Part shown: positions 17,836-22,292 of the stretch, one piece after another
How the letters are laid out: the number at the start of each line of letters is the position of its first letter
How positions within the stretch are numbered: position 1 is the stretch's first letter
NCBI GenBank assembly: GCA_944384655.1
Contig: CALWUF010000060.1
Span: 6,102 to 70,101, forward strand
DNA: 64,000 nucleotides
Direction of reading: 5' to 3'
Source of the DNA: an uncultured Butyricicoccus sp.
GTDB taxonomy: Bacteria > Bacillota > Clostridia > Oscillospirales > Butyricicoccaceae
Notes under the pieces: generated by a model
Told to the model about the DNA's origin: nothing
Seen by the model: the letters and a program-made list of their open reading frames with translations, nothing else
The model's database searches: none
Translations under genes and position numbers: made by a program

Positions 17836-18732
17836 TTACTGTGTGTCATCCGACTGTTCAGGTTCAGAATCTTTCTGTTCGCCCTCTGTGCCGAACAGCT
17901 TCTGATGGCGCTCAAAATCTGTGCGCCGTTCGCAGTATGCATGTTCAAGACGCAGCGTTTCCTTGAGCAAAACCTCCAATTCCGAAGAATAGGCGTCCAA
18001 TTCCTCCGCTGCCCCCAACTTTGCAAATGAGATGATTTTCAAATATTTGCCGACTGCCAGATGCAGCTTGACCTGTGCGCGGTTCAACTCGCCATATTCC
18101 ATCTCATTGATAATCTGCTGAAGCTCCGCGCGAATGCCCAATGTCATGAGCTGAAATACCACACGGTCAGACGGCACAATCAGACGTGTCTCATATCGCG
18201 TCAATAGCTGCTCAAGCAGTTTGTTGTTCGCTTCATGCATCTTGTGCAAGTCTTCCAGTTTATACGAATGCATTTTCAAACCCACGGATTCTTCGGTCAG
18301 ACGGATTTCTTCCATCTCCTCCGGCGTAATGTCCAAATCATCCAGAAATCCTGTGGTACTGTATTTTGTGATCGCAGCGCGCATCGCCTTATACAGATTT
18401 GCCATGCAGTAAACCTGCCGTTCACAGTCTTCAAAATACAGCTTTGCTTTGTTGAGCTTGGCCTCGATCCGCTCCAGATCTTCCGCAGCTTCCGTCTCAC
18501 GGTTGGCGTATTCCGCGATAATGGCTTCGCGCTCTTCGGTCACCTGTTTATGAATGGCGATGATAATGTCATCTTTTCTGGCAATCGTATCTTCACGTGC
18601 ACGCAGTTCTTCCTGCGCTTCCGTCAGTTTTGTCTCCAACTCCTGTAAACGCGCTTGCGCATCCGCAATCTTTGCATTGGTGGCATTCAGCGATTCGCGT
18701 GCGCCCAGCAGTTCTTTCATGGTCTCAAACAT
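17836..18732 (-). CDS. Coiled-coil protein with a DUF4041-like region and no C-terminal nuclease domain
   Basis: Long N-terminal heptad region. Segment VFQLMTLGIRAELQQIINEMEYGEL..KYLKI resembles clostridial DUF4041 proteins (recalled similarity, not searched). Confidence 0.5.
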   Translation of the reverse strand: MFETMKELLGARESLNATNAKIADAQARLQELETKLTEAQEELRAREDTIARKDDIIIAIHKQVTEEREAIIAEYANRETEAAEDLERIEAKLNKAKLYFEDCERQVYCMANLYKAMRAAITKYSTTGFLDDLDITPEEMEEIRLTEESVGLKMHSYKLEDLHKMHEANNKLLEQLLTRYETRLIVPSDRVVFQLMTLGIRAELQQIINEMEYGELNRAQVKLHLAVGKYLKIISFAKLGAAEELDAYSSELEVLLKETLRLEHAYCERRTDFERHQKLFGTEGEQKDSEPEQSDDTQ

Positions 18733-18846
18733 TGGTGTATCTCCTATCCAGACTCAACTGTTATATCAAAATCAAAATCTGATTAAAATCAAGGTTATTG
18801 TACTACTTAAACGCCATTTTCGCAATAGGTTCCTCAAATTCCAGCG

Positions 18847-18875
18847 AAAAAGCCGGAGAAATTTCTCCGGCTTTT
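18847..18875. terminator. Intrinsic terminator downstream of the split gene
   Basis: AAAAAGCCGGAGAAATTTCTCCGGCTTTT: perfect stem flanked by A and T runs. Confidence 0.8.
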
Positions 18876-18911
18876 GATATCGGCTTTGACAATTCTGCGC
18901 GCTTGTGTACA

Positions 18912-19328
18912 TCAGCGGCAGTGTGACGGACGCTCACAGCAGCAGTTGTCGCAATCAGATTGCCGACCGCCTGAATCCGAACCATCGCGTCTGGGTGGGA
19001 AAAATTCTTCCACCGGGAAATCAAACCGCTCAAACATATCGCATGGATCTTGCGCACGTCCGCAGTTTGCATCTTCGCCGGTACAACTGCAATCTTTCGC
19101 AGGCATGCAGATATCGTATGCTGGCATGAGCAACTGAATATCGCGTTCCAGTCGGATGATCGAAAACTGTCCGAGCGTAACATACAACTGTTTGACGTCG
19201 GTATCCAGAATGATGTCATCCCCAAACAGGCGTCCAATGTTTTCCGGCACTTTGTTCAGCTCACAATAACAACCACAACGGCAACCTGGTTCCACCATCT
19301 TTGCCGAAAGAATCAGCGGGTCAAGTGT
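18912..19328 (-). CDS. 3' half (138 aa) of the interrupted Cys-rich putative spore protein
   Basis: TLDPLILSAKMVE..LYVTLGQFSIIRLERDIQLLMPAYDICMPAKDC..FPVEEFFPP. In frame with the 5' half once 19332-21251 is removed. Confidence 0.88.
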   Translation of the reverse strand, partial: TLDPLILSAKMVEPGCRCGCYCELNKVPENIGRLFGDDIILDTDVKQLYVTLGQFSIIRLERDIQLLMPAYDICMPAKDCSCTGEDANCGRAQDPCDMFERFDFPVEEFFPPRRDGSDSGGRQSDCDNCCCERPSHCR

Positions 19329-20550
19329 TTCTGTTTGTGCCGCAGCAATCGGAACAATCGTTCTCCTTTCGCCAAAATATGCGCACGGTACGGTCTTGTT
19401 CCACCTCAATGCGGGACAACAAACGAGTGAGTTGCGCATGCGTTAGCGTACGAATCCAAGACGGTTGCACTGGCACGAGATCATGCAGGCAATGCTCCAA
19501 CAAATCGAACGCGATCGTTTCCGGGATGCTCACGGCATTTGTACAGGTGTTTTTATTGCGGTCATGATGCCAACACATCCAGTACCGCTGTCTCCCCCGC
19601 GTGCGCGGGGAAAATATACCCCCACATGTGCCGCAAACAATGAGACCGCTGAGCGGCAGTGTCGCGCGGCGGCTTTGATTCCATTGTCCACCAGATGCTG
19701 CAATCTTTTTCCGCCGTGCCATCTCCTGCTGGACAGCATCAAACCATGTGCGCGGGACAATGGCCCAATCCGGACGCTCATGTGAAAACCATTCGCTCTG
19801 CGGCAGCGGTTTGACTGTGCCATCCAGATAATCCACAACCGTACTTCGATGATTGACCAATGTGCCGCAATACACCGGATTGCACAGGCAACGGCGCACA
19901 CCGCGCGATTCCCACTGTTTTCCCAACTTGGTCGGTGTGCCCATCCGATTGAGTTCCTGTGCAATGCGTGCCGCACCCCAGCCGTCCAAATATCGAGCAA
20001 ACATGAATCGAACCGCTTCCGCTTCCGCAGAACAGATGCTCAAGGTAAACAAATCCAGACGATCATAGCCGTACAGCATGGGCGGCACACGTCCCTTTTT
20101 CGCGTTGAGTTCTTTGCCGAATTTTACACGTTTGGAGAGATTTGCGCTCTCTTCCTGTGCGAGAGACGCATAAACCGTCAGAATAAATTCCGAATCGCCC
20201 AAGCTCTCCTGTCCGGATGACAAAAAACGCACGGCAATCCCCTGTTTTTTAAGCGCACGGATTGCCTGTAGACAATCGACAGTATTGCGTGCAAACCGGG
20301 AAATGTCCTTGACCGCCACAAGATCAAAAACCCCACACGCAGCATCGGACAACATACGCATAAATTGTTCCCTTCTGCGAAGCTGCCTGCCGGACACACC
20401 TTCATCGGCATAGACTGCGGCAAGCTCCATCCCTTCCCGCGCAGCATACTGCTCAAAAAATTCCTTCTGATGCATTAAACTGTCCAATTGTCCCTCTTTT
20501 TTTGTCGAAACACGGCAATAGGCTGCGAGACGTATTGTTTTATTTGTCAT
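19321..20550 (-). CDS. Large serine recombinase (SpoIVCA/CisA-like), 409 aa
   Basis: AYCRVST catalytic Ser, YADEGVSG, KDISRFARN, recombinase domain, zinc ribbon LSGLIVCGTCG..YWMC..TC. SD GGAGG before ATG 20550. The stop codon lies in host DNA beyond the left junction. Confidence 0.95.
   Translation of the reverse strand: MTNKTIRLAAYCRVSTKKEGQLDSLMHQKEFFEQYAAREGMELAAVYADEGVSGRQLRRREQFMRMLSDAACGVFDLVAVKDISRFARNTVDCLQAIRALKKQGIAVRFLSSGQESLGDSEFILTVYASLAQEESANLSKRVKFGKELNAKKGRVPPMLYGYDRLDLFTLSICSAEAEAVRFMFARYLDGWGAARIAQELNRMGTPTKLGKQWESRGVRRCLCNPVYCGTLVNHRSTVVDYLDGTVKPLPQSEWFSHERPDWAIVPRTWFDAVQQEMARRKKIAASGGQWNQSRRATLPLSGLIVCGTCGGIFSPRTRGRQRYWMCWHHDRNKNTCTNAVSIPETIAFDLLEHCLHDLVPVQPSWIRTLTHAQLTRLLSRIEVEQDRTVRIFWRKENDCSDCCGTNRNT
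19336..19355. repeat. Left terminal inverted repeat (attP half-site)
   Basis: TGTGCCGCAGCAATCGGAAC, a 19/20 match to the reverse complement of 21226-21245. Confidence 0.95.
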
Positions 20551-20653
20551 CTCGACAGTCCTCCAGTTCCTGTAAAACTGCCAAAATTGATTGCCTGCAC
20601 TGCATATGATCGGACTGTACACGATAATCTGCTGAACTCAAACGTTTGCCCAT
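20540..20653 (-). CDS. Small 37-aa ORF overlapping the recombinase start (candidate directionality factor or regulator)
   Basis: MGKRLSSADYRVQSDHMQCRQSILAVLQELEDCRDDK. Strong SD GGAGGAGG 7 nt upstream. Stop lies within the first recombinase codons. Below the ORF-track cut-off. Confidence 0.6.
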   Translation of the reverse strand: MGKRLSSADYRVQSDHMQCRQSILAVLQELEDCRDDK

Positions 20654-20743
20654 AGTCATCCCTCCTCCCTGATGTTATATGCAAATTATCATTGCGTTTT
20701 GCTCCAAAACCGCCTACAATAACAACGAAAGGAAGGAATCGCC

Positions 20744-21220
20744 ATGAGAAACACCACACTGTGTTATATCGAACAAAATGGTAAGTATCTGATGCTTCAC
20801 CGCACAAAAAAAGAAAATGACCAGAGCCATGACAAATGGTTGGGGATCGGCGGCAAATTTGAGGACAAGGAAAGCCCGGAAGAATGCATCCTGCGCGAGA
20901 CGCGCGAGGAAACCGGTCTGACCCTGACAAGCTACCGCTACCGCGGCATTGTCACCTTCGTCTCGGATATCTGGGAAACGGAATATATGCATTTGTTTAC
21001 TGCAGATGGGTTTACAGGTACCCTGACAGACTGCGATGAAGGGGAGTGCCAGTGGATCCCCCGTGAAACACTGCTTTCACTGCCCATGTGGGAAGGCGAT
21101 CGTATTTTCCTAAATCTGTTGTTCGACCCGAAACAACCGTTCTTTTCGCTCAAGCTGGAGTATCAAAAGGATACCCTGATCTATGCTGCAAAAGATGGCA
21201 TTGCACTCCCGTTGAACTGA
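20744..21220 (+). CDS. Nudix hydrolase, MutT/8-oxo-dGTP diphosphatase-like (element cargo)
   Basis: Nudix box GGKFEDKESPEECILRETREETGL. SD AGGAAGGA. Stop is 5 nt before the right inverted repeat. Confidence 0.9.
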   Translation: MRNTTLCYIEQNGKYLMLHRTKKENDQSHDKWLGIGGKFEDKESPEECILRETREETGLTLTSYRYRGIVTFVSDIWETEYMHLFTADGFTGTLTDCDEGECQWIPRETLLSLPMWEGDRIFLNLLFDPKQPFFSLKLEYQKDTLIYAAKDGIALPLN

Positions 21221-21225
21221 ATCCC

Positions 21226-21245
21226 GTTCCGATTGCTGAGGCACA
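21226..21245. repeat. Right terminal inverted repeat (attP half-site)
   Basis: GTTCCGATTGCTGAGGCACA. Confidence 0.95.
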
Positions 21246-21248
21246 TCG

Positions 21249-21701
21249 TTCAACAACTGCCTCCGGCTTGTTCGCACGTTCAATCGTCTGCGCATTGGGC
21301 GAGCCCCCCTGCGATGAGAAAATACGTGCAGAGCCTTCGCTGCCATACAGAATTGCGCGTTTGTCATAATAGGCAAGACCACACAACTCCTGTGCACAAC
21401 CACAGCCTGTGCTGACCTCTGTGAAAATCTTGTAAAAATAGCGCACATCTATGCTGAAAAATCCCCGGTTGAAATCCACCGGCTGCACATCGATATCCAC
21501 ACACAACAGCTCTGCACGGCGCGGCTTAATGCTCGCTGAACGTTCCAGCAGTTCTTGTGAACTGCGCGTCAAATACACACGCAGGTCTCGAATGCATTCC
21601 TTTGAACGGCAGGCGTCAAAGATTTTTTTCGTGTGGGTGCACACGGCTTCCCGAATCTGAGTGTCACTGCACACTGGACCGGGTGTTACTCGTTCACTCA
21701 T
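21249..21701 (-). CDS. 5' half (151 aa) of the interrupted Cys-rich putative spore protein
   Basis: MSERVTPGP..EAVCTHTKKIFDACRSKECIRDLRVY..FNRGFFSIDVRYFY..LYGSEGSARIFSS..PEAVVE. SD GGAGG before ATG 21701. Confidence 0.88.
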
Positions 21702-21732
21702 AACTTCTCCCTCCATGTCGGTAATTCTGGAC

Positions 21733-21759
21733 TATACTATGCCGCACATGGGAAAAGGT
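21733..21759 (-). promoter_or_regulatory. SigK-like (mother-cell) promoter of the split gene
   Basis: Minus strand reads AC-N16-CATAGTATA, matching the B. subtilis sigK consensus AC-N16/17-CATAnnnTA. Confidence 0.55.
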
Positions 21760-21797
21760 GATTTCACAATGGAACCGTTATCAAGGAGGCTGATTTT

Positions 21798-22292
21798 ATC
21801 ACTGCACAAAACTATCAGACCTGGACACAGCCGCTGCGGCGCAGACCACGCCTGCTGCGCGCCATGCTGCTGCTCAACCGCATATTACCGCTGTTGCTCT
21901 ATGCCCTGTATCCGATTCTGCTTTTGTCTCTGCTTTTTCAGCAGGATGACCGGTTTTTGCGCGTACTTCTCACCCCGGGCATATCCTTTGTCTTGCTTTC
22001 CATATTCCGCGACCGCTTGAATGCACCGCGTCCCTATGAAGCGCTGGACATCGATCCGCTGATTCATAAAAATACCAAAGGACATTCATTTCCCAGCCGC
22101 CATGTATTTTCCATCTCAGTCATTGCCTGTTCGTTTTGGTACATCCATCCGCCTGTAGGAATGGTCCTGATGTTCTTCGCTGTCCTTACGGCTGTGATCC
22201 GTGTGCTTGGCGGGGTACATTTTCCGCGCGATGTGATCGCAGGTCTCGCAATCGGCGTCCTTTCCGGCGTCATCGGTTTTGTGTTGCTGTAA
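21798..22292 (+). CDS. PAP2-family membrane phosphatase (apparent ATC start codon)
   Basis: RPRPYE-like motif (APRPYE), SFPSRH, RVLGGVHFPRDV. Perfect SD AAGGAGG 8 nt before ATC 21798. First in-frame ATG is at 21864. Confidence 0.85.
   Translation: MTAQNYQTWTQPLRRRPRLLRAMLLLNRILPLLLYALYPILLLSLLFQQDDRFLRVLLTPGISFVLLSIFRDRLNAPRPYEALDIDPLIHKNTKGHSFPSRHVFSISVIACSFWYIHPPVGMVLMFFAVLTAVIRVLGGVHFPRDVIAGLAIGVLSGVIGFVLL

What the first reader, a model, noticed from the sequence alone, without database searches (positions are those of the whole stretch)
19329..21251. Integrase-style att sites: 20-bp inverted repeats that rebuild a symmetric 50-bp attP around a TC core
Seen: the left end is TTC-TGTT-TGTGCCGCAGCAATCGGAAC and the right end is GTTCCGATTGCTGAGGCACA-TCG-TTC (19/20 inverted match). 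Circularisation gives GTTCCGATTGCTGAGGCACA TCGT[TC]TGTT TGTGCCGCAGCAATCGGAAC, 24 bp each side of a central TC. The restored host site GTCAAGTGTT[TC]AACAACTGCC is a shorter 7/10 imperfect palindrome around the same TC. Established: large serine integrases cut at a central dinucleotide, with a longer symmetric attP (about 50 bp) and a shorter attB. Inference: the sites are intact, define a possibly functional new integrase/att pair, and predict the crossover point.
Basis: partly seen in the sequence, partly recalled or inferred. Interest (0 to 1): 0.75.

Follow-up and report, generated by a model that had tools for sequence, protein, structure and literature searches.

The report
Tiny self-excising element splitting a gene
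A 1.9-kb insert in a chicken-gut Butyricicoccus chromosome splits a conserved gene and is removed exactly at the predicted two-base TC core, apparently by its own unusually short serine recombinase, so it is a miniature, long-resident relative of the 'skin' elements of spore-forming bacteria rather than a travelling phage integrase cassette.

Summary
A 19/20 inverted repeat (19336-19355 and 21226-21245) and a TTC direct repeat bound a 1920-bp element. It carries a 409-aa large serine recombinase, a 37-aa upstream ORF and a Nudix gene.

The element splits a conserved 289-aa host gene, and deleting it at the TTC restores the frame. The predicted crossover is confirmed:
- In two related species the only identity shared by the two junctions is the dinucleotide GA (TC on the window + strand).
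- Contigs from 9 gut metatranscriptomes (two species, five studies) carry exactly the predicted joined gene. The ambiguity at the joint is 3 nt in the window species and 2 nt in B. porcorum.
- Contigs from 13 runs listed as DNA or of unrecorded kind show only the integrated form.

The element is not freshly mobile. Its synonymous divergence equals that of flanking genes, and all its genes and both host halves are under purifying selection.

The recombinase lacks the coiled-coil motif. A sister clade also lacks the zinc-ribbon domain and the outer repeat arms.

A conserved sigma-K-type promoter motif precedes the host gene.

Best reading: a domesticated, skin-like gene-intervening element that mainly excises. 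Integration activity, excision at the DNA level and the sporulation link are inferred, not shown.

The parts
19306..19355 (.). attL. It consists of a host half-site (to 19329), the crossover dinucleotide TC (19330-19331), the spacer TGTT and the element arm TGTGCCGCAGCAATCGGAAC (19336-19355).
   Evidence: The arm and core are conserved in L001 and L002. The RNA-contig joint is at 19328/21249 with 3 ambiguous nt. The outer limit of the site is nominal and not determined.
21226..21275 (.). attR. It consists of the element arm GTTCCGATTGCTGAGGCACA (21226-21245), the spacer TCGT, the crossover dinucleotide TC (21250-21251) and a host half-site AACAACTGCC...
   Evidence: The outer limit of the site is nominal.
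19321..20550 (-). Large serine recombinase, 409 aa. The ATG is at 20550 and the catalytic Ser15 lies in YCRVST. The last 3 codons and the stop lie beyond the crossover, in host DNA. The coiled-coil motif is reduced to a stub.
   Evidence: Pfam PF00239, PF07508 and PF13408. NCBIfam matches to CcrB and XisF are below cut-off. Alignment with ~500-aa relatives shows about 85-100 residues missing. AF2 model. dN/dS 0.09.
20540..20653 (-). Small ORF of 37 aa (MGKRLSSADYRVQSDHMQCRQSILAVLQELEDCRDDK). Its stop overlaps the recombinase ATG (ATGACAAATAA). It is a candidate directionality or regulatory factor.
   Evidence: Conserved in L001 and L002, with dN/dS about 0.2 over 33 codons. Absent from the Zn-ribbon-less sister clade. 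The function is inferred only.
20671..20697 (-). Conserved promoter-like motif AAAACGCAATG-N7-TTGCATATA, upstream of the small ORF and recombinase.
   Evidence: Conserved in the window, L001, L002, L011, L012 and L094. The sigma factor is not assigned.
20744..21220 (+). Nudix hydrolase cargo gene, 158 aa. Its stop codon lies 5 nt from the right arm.
   Evidence: Pfam PF00293. dN/dS 0.04. RNA contigs cover it and run through attR. A 74% identical ortholog sits beside an intact host gene in L010.
21252..21701 (-). 5' part of the split host gene (codons 1-150; the true start is ATG 21701, preceded by RBS GGAGGGAG).
   Evidence: dN/dS 0.04-0.05.
18912..19329 (-). 3' part of the split host gene, with a Cys-rich C-terminal tail. 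The stop is at 18912-18914.
   Evidence: dN/dS 0.045.
21733..21759 (-). Sigma-K-type promoter motif AC-N16-CATAGTATA upstream of the host gene.
   Evidence: The relaxed form AC-N16-CATAnnnT recurs upstream of homologs in L003, L009, L010, L011 and L012, but not in L008. The assignment to sigma K rests on the B. subtilis consensus (own knowledge).

Best explanation
The 1920-bp segment is a minimal gene-intervening element that has lived in the chromosome of a Butyricicoccus lineage since before its species split. It interrupts codon 151 of a conserved 289-aa gene of unknown function. That gene is Cys-rich and probably a late mother-cell (sigma-K) sporulation gene.

Proposed mechanism:
- The element's own large serine recombinase binds the two 20-bp arms and the host half-sites (attL and attR).
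- It cuts both at the central TC with the 2-nt stagger typical of serine recombinases and rejoins them.
- This releases a 1.92-kb circle carrying the symmetric attP and leaves an intact, in-frame host gene, which is then transcribed.

The recombinase has lost the coiled-coil motif that in phage integrases promotes attP x attB synapsis and blocks attL x attR. It is therefore expected to be biased towards, or at least permissive for, excision and poor at re-integration. The 37-aa ORF coupled to it may time or assist the reaction.

Shown: the site anatomy, the conservation of the sites, the 2-bp crossover position, the existence of the joined gene as RNA in vivo, vertical inheritance and purifying selection.

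Inferred: that the joint is made in DNA by this recombinase, that it happens in sporulating mother cells, the role of the small ORF, and the excision bias.
For: Anatomy:
- The arms, the TTC repeat and a symmetry centre on TC. No shuffle reaches 19/20.
- The recombinase has the catalytic, recombinase and Zn-ribbon domains.

Comparison:
- The same element sits at the same codon in B. porcorum BB10 (L001) and a MAG (L002), with conserved arms. The junctions there share only GA.

In vivo product:
- The joint 19328->21249 is present in 5 of 5 chicken-gut metatranscriptomes of one study. The joined contigs span 18812-21790 of the host gene, at depth 7.7-59. In two of those runs the element interior has little or no RNA cover.
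- In B. porcorum the joint 5301->7217, with a 2-nt overlap, is present in 4 of 4 pig-gut metatranscriptomes from 4 studies.
- Contigs of 13 runs that are not RNA libraries (kind listed as 'DNA?' or unrecorded), at depth up to 241, show only the integrated form.
- In the protein collection the two intact proteins recovered for these two species occur only on contigs of at most 1358 nt. The named split-half members sum to more than 160 contig records, with contigs up to 131 kb.

Evolution:
- dS of the recombinase (1.14) and Nudix (1.25) equals dS of the flanking genes (1.19, 1.23).
- dN/dS is 0.09 for the recombinase, 0.04 for Nudix and 0.04-0.05 for the host halves.
- GC of the element is 0.506, against 0.50 and 0.49 in the flanks.

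Coiled coil:
- It is absent in the alignment and in the model.
- LI integrase lacking the coiled coil recombines attL x attR without a directionality factor but is poor at intermolecular attP x attB (PMC5499577).

Sporulation link:
- AC-N16-CATAGTATA lies upstream of the host gene, and the relaxed motif recurs in five other loci (L003, L009, L010, L011, L012) out of six examined.
- The same gene carries a second inserted element at codon ~23 in other genomes, as is typical of mother-cell genes.

Precedent: skin, SPbeta, gin and skinCd (PMC5595907; PMC5025042).
Against: - No excised DNA junction and no circle (attP) junction was seen. All runs were available only as assembled contigs, which drop rare variants, so DNA-level excision is inferred from RNA.
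- The joined RNA could in principle come from rare cured cells.
- The host protein has no Pfam or NCBIfam family in the copies used, no PDB sequence match and no PDB fold match. Its sporulation role rests on a short promoter motif.
- None of the 27 ORFs of the 64-kb window that I scanned matched a sporulation-named family, and I did not establish that this organism sporulates.
- The sigma-K motif is absent upstream of the Agathobaculum homolog L008.
- The coiled-coil-less LI integrase is inefficient in vitro.
- One related locus (L094) is clearly decayed, so the system is dispensable in some lineages.
Confidence: 0.76

Rival explanations
1. It is an active, mobile integrase cassette. In this view the recombinase is a bona fide integrase that still moves the 1.9-kb circle into empty attB sites (attP x attB), and its presence in several species reflects repeated site-specific integration.
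For: The domain set is that of a large serine recombinase. The attP is symmetric and the attB shorter and less symmetric. attB-like sequence exists in species with an empty site: the L003 right half AACACTTGACCCGCTG is identical.
Against: - dS of the element genes equals dS of the flanking chromosomal genes, so the element diverged together with the host.
- The element sits at the same position in every locus that carries it, and it has no compositional contrast with the flanks.
- It carries no transfer, replication or phage genes.
- The coiled-coil motif needed for efficient attP x attB synapsis in characterised integrases is missing.
- The closest phage recombinases are at most 40% identical.
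Confidence: 0.12
2. It is an inert relic. In this view the element no longer excises, the split gene is dead, and the joined transcripts come from co-resident strains that never had, or long ago lost, the element.
For: No DNA-level joint was seen in 13 non-RNA runs. A decayed relative exists in L094. Communities contain several strains, as shown by SNPs.
Against: - The recombinase, both host halves and the cargo gene are all under strong purifying selection across species.
- The joined contigs are identical to the integrated allele's flanks: 0 mismatches over 988 nt in X19 and 100% identity to L001.
- The intact alleles recovered for these two species occur only on contigs of at most 1358 nt. 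The one contig whose run I could identify (L004) matches an RNA-run contig in length and coordinates.
- The joint appears in 9 of 11 RNA runs from two hosts.
Confidence: 0.07
3. The insert is removed at the RNA level. In this view the 1.9-kb insert is spliced out of the transcript (intron-like), and the repeats are incidental.
For: The joined form was seen only in RNA libraries.
Against: - No Rfam family, intron or ribozyme matches 18700-21900 even at E<=1.
- The insert encodes a serine recombinase on the strand of the host transcript, preceded by an antisense Nudix gene. It has no reverse transcriptase or homing endonuclease.
- The joint coincides with the 2-bp symmetry centre of a recombinase-type inverted repeat in two species.
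Confidence: 0.02

Closest known systems
skin element / SpoIVCA (Bacillus subtilis sigK) and skinCd / CD1231 + CD1234 (Clostridioides difficile)
   Same: An element-encoded large serine recombinase precisely excises an insert from a mother-cell gene and restores the reading frame. In C. difficile a small protein with no database similarity (72 aa, with a short leader) acts as the directionality factor (PMC5025042). Here a 37-aa ORF is coupled to the recombinase.
   Different: - Those elements are prophage-like and many kilobases long (own knowledge); this one is 1.92 kb with one cargo gene.
- The target is not sigK but an uncharacterised Cys-rich gene.
- The recombinase here is 409 aa and lacks the coiled coil.
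- The host is a Butyricicoccus (Oscillospirales), not Bacillus or Clostridioides.
- Developmental timing is not shown here.
gin element (GirC/GirX) in gerE of Bacillus cereus ATCC 10987
   Same: It is a non-prophage gene-intervening element with a serine recombinase plus an accessory factor, inserted in a sigma-K-period gene (PMC5595907).
   Different: gin is 28.6 kb, carries three recombinase genes and recombines within a 9-bp shared sequence. Here the element is 1.92 kb, has one recombinase and has a 2-bp core (3-bp identity in the window).
SPbeta SprA/SprB and spsM
   Same: A large serine integrase with ~50-bp att sites reconstitutes a spore-envelope gene during sporulation (PMC4191935, PMC5499854).
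   Different: SPbeta is an active phage, and SprA is a full-length integrase with a coiled coil. PDB chains 9dxh and 9dxd (deposited as 'Resolvase homolog YokA') match the window protein only weakly, at E about 3e-8.
Listeria LI/A118 integrase with the coiled coil deleted (laboratory mutants)
   Same: They have the same domain set minus the coiled coil. Such mutants lose directionality: they recombine attL x attR without a directionality factor and are poor at intermolecular attP x attB (PMC5499577).
   Different: Those are engineered and inefficient. Here the loss is natural, is conserved across species under purifying selection, and is associated with an in vivo product.
fdxN element / XisF of Anabaena (heterocyst DNA rearrangement)
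   Same: It is a developmentally excised element with a serine recombinase. The NCBIfam XisF model is the second-best hit (E 5.6e-29).
   Different: The score (101 bits) is far below the family cut-off (375), so this is not an XisF ortholog. The organism and developmental programme differ.

Membership tests
Large serine recombinase (LSR / serine integrase) | N-terminal resolvase-type catalytic domain with the nucleophilic serine | tested here: met
   PF00239 at E 1.5e-31. Ser15 in AAYCRVST is invariant in the alignment.
Large serine recombinase (LSR / serine integrase) | Recombinase domain followed by a zinc-ribbon domain | tested here: met
   PF07508 at E 6e-20 and PF13408 at E 2e-13. The AF2 model shows RD at 162-286 and ZD at 304-393. 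The sister clade (L011, L012) lacks the zinc ribbon.
Large serine recombinase (LSR / serine integrase) | Long coiled-coil motif inserted in the zinc-ribbon domain (controls synapsis and directionality) | tested here: not met
   About 85-100 residues present in 46-51% identical ~500-aa relatives are missing. The model has only short helices at 344-358 and 371-377.
Large serine recombinase (LSR / serine integrase) | Crossover at a central, non-palindromic dinucleotide flanked by imperfect inverted repeats | tested here: met
   The symmetry centre lies on TC. The junctions share only GA in L001 and L002. The joined contigs have 2-nt (B. porcorum) and 3-nt (window) ambiguity.
Large serine recombinase (LSR / serine integrase) | Catalyses attP x attB integration unaided and needs a directionality factor for attL x attR | not testable with these tools
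   This needs recombination assays. Comparative data (vertical inheritance) give no sign of recent integration.
Sporulation-type gene-intervening element (skin, SPbeta, vfbin, gin) | The insert splits a coding sequence, and precise excision restores an intact, conserved ORF | tested here: met
   The frame is restored. The search returned 3493 homologs, and those listed with full coverage are about 260-365 aa. The insertion lies in the conserved motif P-x-AVVE-x-(L/V)-DP.
Sporulation-type gene-intervening element (skin, SPbeta, vfbin, gin) | The excised (joined) form is produced in vivo | tested here: met
   Joined contigs occur in 9 metatranscriptomes of two species. The evidence is at RNA level only, and the DNA junction was not observed.
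Sporulation-type gene-intervening element (skin, SPbeta, vfbin, gin) | The interrupted gene is a mother-cell sporulation gene | tested here: inconclusive
   A conserved AC-N16-CATAnnnT(A) motif lies upstream in the window clade and in five of six other loci examined. The protein has a Cys-rich tail, and the same gene carries a second insertion site. But there is no annotated family and no fold match.
Sporulation-type gene-intervening element (skin, SPbeta, vfbin, gin) | Excision is restricted to the sporulating mother cell | not testable with these tools
   This needs time-course or cell-type-resolved experiments.
Temperate phage / ICE integration module | Linked phage or transfer genes, and horizontal, patchy distribution | tested here: not met
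   The cargo is only Nudix and a 37-aa ORF. dS of the element equals dS of the flanks. The locus is syntenic in all carriers.
XisF / CcrB equivalogs (NCBIfam) | Score above the curated family cut-off | tested here: not met
   CcrB scores 107.8 bits against a cut-off of 900. XisF scores 101.4 against 375.
Self-splicing intron | Conserved ribozyme structure or an intron-encoded RT or homing endonuclease | tested here: not met
   There is no Rfam hit below E=0.19 in 18700-21900. The ORFs are a recombinase and a Nudix hydrolase.

The most novel reading that the evidence does not exclude
Butyricicoccus may hold a graded natural series of 'stripped' large serine recombinases that still perform precise developmental excision. 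The series runs from ~500 aa (full length), to ~407 aa without the coiled coil (this window), to ~290 aa without any zinc-ribbon domain. In the last class the att sites have shrunk in step to ~9-bp inner arms and the small accessory ORF is gone. If the 290-aa enzymes are active, site recognition and one-way excision can be achieved by the catalytic plus recombinase domains alone. That would contradict the current view that the zinc-ribbon and coiled-coil module is indispensable for att-site recognition and directionality.
Probability: 0.35. Interest if true: 0.85.

Novelty: new variant of a known kind. Interest (0 to 1): 0.62.

Why it matters
1. It turns a sequence-only prediction of att sites and a crossover dinucleotide into a case supported by natural junction sequences in two species.

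2. It extends developmentally excised gene-intervening elements to Butyricicoccus, an abundant butyrate-producing gut genus. It also extends them to a 1.5-1.9-kb format that carries little more than the recombinase and has been inherited vertically for a long time. That points to domestication, not parasitism.

3. The enzyme is a natural coiled-coil-less large serine recombinase with defined sites, and its sister clade lacks the zinc ribbon as well. This is a ready-made natural experiment on how these enzymes set directionality. It is also a compact candidate for excision tools.

4. It flags an uncharacterised, widespread protein family (3493 homologs found, Cys-rich) as a likely late-sporulation or coat component in Oscillospirales.

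Tried and rejected
Host protein function:
- Pfam and NCBIfam gave nothing. One homolog carries a precomputed PF27077, which the local Pfam copy did not report.
- A PDB profile search gave nothing.
- The AF2 model (pLDDT 70, mostly beta) has no PDB fold match at E<=0.001.

DNA-level evidence for excision:
- Contigs of 13 non-RNA runs showed no joint. No raw-read runs were offered, so rare junctions cannot be excluded or shown.
- No 'goes back' joint (circle junction) was seen in any run.

Testing excision in the Zn-ribbon-less clade:
- Exact look-up of the predicted joined proteins found nothing.
- The 80 cluster members read were all split forms.

Other searches:
- The genome scan found two loci only.
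- 27 window ORFs were scanned for sporulation families, and none matched a sporulation-named family.
- A literature search on sporulation in B. porcorum was uninformative.

Considered and rejected:
- IS607-type transposase: NCBIfam 36 bits against a cut-off of 110.
- Intron.
- Phage integrase module.

Not resolved:
- I could not find a convincing shared outer (zinc-ribbon) motif between the attP and attB half-sites by eye.
- I could not assign the promoter upstream of the recombinase to a sigma factor.
Full report
**Observation.**
- TGTGCCGCAGCAATCGGAAC (19336-19355) and GTTCCGATTGCTGAGGCACA (21226-21245) are 19/20 complementary.
- TTC is repeated at 19329-19331 and 21249-21251.
- Joining the ends gives a 50-bp site whose arms are separated by TCGT-TC-TGTT, so the symmetry centre falls on TC, inside the direct repeat.
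- In 60 shuffles of the 2.6-kb region the best 20-nt inverted match was 15-18 and never 19.

**What lies between the sites.**
- On the minus strand there is a 409-aa protein with Resolvase, Recombinase and Zn-ribbon domains and the catalytic serine in YCRVST.
- Upstream of it is a 37-aa ORF whose stop overlaps the recombinase ATG.
- On the plus strand there is a 158-aa Nudix hydrolase whose stop is 5 nt from the right arm.
- The recombinase ORF runs through attL. Its last three codons and its stop (19321-19323) lie in host DNA.
- On the excised circle the recombinase ORF would be 20 codons longer.

**What the element interrupts.** ORFs 21150-21716 and 18912-19439 (minus strand) are two halves of one gene.
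- Deleting 1920 bp at the TTC restores ...NKPEAVVE-TLDPLIL... in frame.
- The restored 289-aa protein has 3493 homologs. Those listed with full coverage are about 260-365 aa, and the few that carry names come from Butyricicoccus, Butyricicoccaceae, Agathobaculum and 'Eubacteriales' records.
- The insertion point lies in one of the most conserved motifs of the family.
- The family has no Pfam or NCBIfam model in the copies used, no PDB relative by sequence, and no PDB fold match for its mostly-beta AF2 model.

**Comparative test of the crossover.** The genome scan found the same element at the same codon in Butyricicoccus porcorum BB10 (L001) and in a MAG (L002).
- Both loci have the same gene order, and the element and flanks are about 81-82% identical in DNA to the window.
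- The arms are conserved.
- In both relatives the left junction reads GTT-GA-G and the right junction reads ACA-GA-A. The only identity shared by the two junctions is therefore GA, which is TC on the window + strand.

**Direct evidence for the product, window species.**
- Contigs of five chicken-gut metatranscriptomes from one study join 19328 to 21249, skipping 1920 nt, with 3 ambiguous letters. One contig of 988 nt has no mismatch.
- In two of these runs the element interior has little or no RNA cover, while the joined ~0.98-kb transcript has depth 24 and 7.7.
- Two low-coverage RNA runs from another study did not cover the joint.

**Direct evidence for the product, B. porcorum.**
- Four pig-gut metatranscriptomes from four studies join L001 5301 to 7217 with a 2-nt overlap.

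**DNA-type runs and the protein collection.**
- Contigs of 13 runs that are not RNA libraries (listed as 'DNA?' or of unrecorded kind), at depth up to 241, show only the integrated form.
- In the protein collection, the two intact proteins recovered for these two species occur only on contigs of at most 1358 nt.
- The named split-half members sum to more than 160 contig records, with contigs up to 131 kb.
- These data are assembled contigs, which discard rare variants. Excision at the DNA level is therefore inferred, not seen, and no circle junction was detected.

**Mobile or resident?** The comparison is between the window and L001.

| Gene | dS | dN/dS |
|---|---|---|
| Recombinase | 1.14 | 0.09 |
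| Nudix | 1.25 | 0.04 |
| Flanking coiled-coil gene | 1.19 | 0.04 |
| Flanking radical-SAM gene | 1.23 | 0.02 |
| Host gene halves | 0.65 and 1.43 | 0.05 and 0.045 |

- The small ORF has dN/dS of about 0.2 over 33 codons.
- GC content of the element equals that of the flanks.
- The element has therefore diverged together with the chromosome, and everything in it, including the split gene, is kept by selection.
- That pattern is hard to explain unless the gene is still made whole.

**The recombinase is unusual.**
- Relatives fall into three size classes: about 500 aa (46-51% identical), 406-409 aa (this clade) and 287-305 aa.
- Against the 500-aa class, the window protein lacks about 85-100 residues where the coiled-coil motif sits.
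- The AF2 model shows only short helices there, at 344-358 and 371-377.
- LI integrase with the coiled coil deleted recombines attL x attR without a directionality factor, is poor at intermolecular attP x attB, and is 'promiscuous' (PMC5499577).
- A natural enzyme of this kind should therefore excise, and it has little to favour re-integration.

**The 287-305-aa class.**
- It occupies the same syntenic locus in other Butyricicoccus species (L011, L012/L013). The elements there are 1470-1485 bp.
- It lacks the Zn ribbon and the small ORF.
- It keeps only the inner ~9 bp of the arms. The outer arm is degenerate on the right and deleted on the left.
- It is still under purifying selection (dN/dS 0.115).
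- All short and mid-size proteins end in ...CGTNRNT, the peptide encoded by arm, core and host flank. The ORF-through-attL arrangement is therefore ancestral.
- I could not test whether the short enzymes excise.
- One further locus (L094) is plainly decayed: the host 5' half and Nudix are gone and the recombinase has a premature stop.

**Link to sporulation (inference).**
- Upstream of the host gene is tcAC-N16-CATAGTATA followed by GGAGGGAG and the ATG. This matches the B. subtilis sigma-K consensus AC-16/17-CATAnnnTA (own knowledge). It is conserved in the window, L002 and the B. porcorum transcript contigs L004 and L005.
- The relaxed motif AC-N16-CATAnnnT recurs upstream of homologs in L003, L009, L010, L011 and L012, but not in L008. 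A 7-base motif is expected by chance in under 1% of such 125-nt windows.
- The protein ends in a Cys-rich tail.
- The same gene carries a second inserted element at codon ~23 in B. porcorum BB10 (phage lysis-type ORFs) and in L095 (tyrosine integrase).
- Such stacking of insertions is what is seen for mother-cell genes, where excision in a terminal cell costs nothing (PMC5595907).
- Against this, none of the 27 window ORFs I scanned matched a sporulation-named family, and I could not document sporulation of the organism.

**Rivals.**
- An actively mobile integrase cassette is disfavoured by the dS equality, the fixed position, the lack of mobility genes and the missing coiled coil.
- An inert relic, with the RNA coming from empty-site strains, is disfavoured by purifying selection on every part. 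It is also disfavoured because the intact allele recovered for these two species occurs only on contigs of at most 1358 nt.
- RNA splicing is disfavoured by the absence of any ribozyme or intron signature and by the coincidence of the joint with a recombinase-type core.

**Comparison with known systems.** It works like skin/SpoIVCA, skinCd/CD1231+CD1234, SPbeta SprA/SprB-spsM and gin GirC/GirX-gerE. It differs in several ways:
- size, about ten-fold smaller or more than gin (28.6 kb);
- the target gene;
- the host lineage;
- long vertical residence;
- the loss of the coiled coil, and in the sister clade the loss of the zinc ribbon.

It is a large serine recombinase by domains and crossover geometry, but it fails the coiled-coil criterion. 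It is not an ortholog of XisF or CcrB.

**Verdict.** I rate it a new variant of a known kind, with interest 0.62.

Noticed in passing
L001:4920/4921 (B. porcorum BB10, NZ_NHOC01000002.1); also L095:~2016: There is a second insertion site in the same host gene, at codon ~23/24 (C-T-H|T-K-K). BB10 has phage lysis-type ORFs (L001 2831-4571) abutting the break. The junction ORF P0247 occurs on 63 contigs up to 131 kb. L095 has a tyrosine integrase and a NikA-like gene at the same break. RNA and DNA contigs of other strains read straight through.
   Followed up: partly
L010:2401-2874 (GCA_030539335.1, JAUNSG010000006.1): A Nudix gene 74% identical to the element's cargo lies immediately upstream of, and divergent from, an intact host-gene homolog. 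The locus has no recombinase and no att arm. The Nudix 5' region is also similar. Either the cargo was captured from the neighbourhood or this is a relic; unexplained.
   Followed up: partly
L011:3405-4876; L012/L013:3387-4873: The sister elements are 1470-1485 bp. Their recombinase is 294-305 aa with no Zn ribbon, they have no small ORF, and only the inner ~9 bp of the arms are conserved. They are still under purifying selection. I could not test whether they excise.
   Followed up: partly
L094:1750-2800: This is a decayed copy. The host 5' half and Nudix are replaced by a pyruvate kinase gene upstream. The recombinase ends early at a TAG created in the core region (AACAGA changed to AGTAGA).
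   Followed up: partly
window 19321-19331 and 21226-21251: The recombinase ORF crosses attL, so its last three codons and stop are host DNA. On the excised circle it would gain a different tail and be 20 residues longer (...GTNRTMCLSNRNGIQFNGSAMPSFAA). The C-terminal peptide CGTNRNT is conserved across clades because it is the att arm.
   Followed up: yes
window 20671-20697 (minus strand): The motif AAAACGCAATG-N7-TTGCATATA upstream of the small ORF or recombinase is conserved in all clades, including the decayed L094. It has a CATA-type -10 box, but its AC-N14 spacing does not fit sigma K. The sigma factor is unassigned.
   Followed up: partly
window 20806-21278: RNA contigs (X14, X25; depth ~16) cover the Nudix gene and run through attR into the host 5' half in antisense. 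The cargo gene is therefore expressed from the integrated form.
   Followed up: no
L006:1-19, L007:1-19; loose ends at window 20667 (X2) and 20482 (X5): The Nextera transposase adapter sequence AGATGTGTATAAGAGACAG is attached to public contigs. This is a library artefact, not biology.
   Followed up: no
window 17836-18732 (minus strand): A 298-aa coiled-coil protein with no family lies directly downstream of the host gene. It is syntenic with the host gene in all Butyricicoccus loci examined (L001, L011, L012, L094, L095) and may be functionally linked to it.
   Followed up: no
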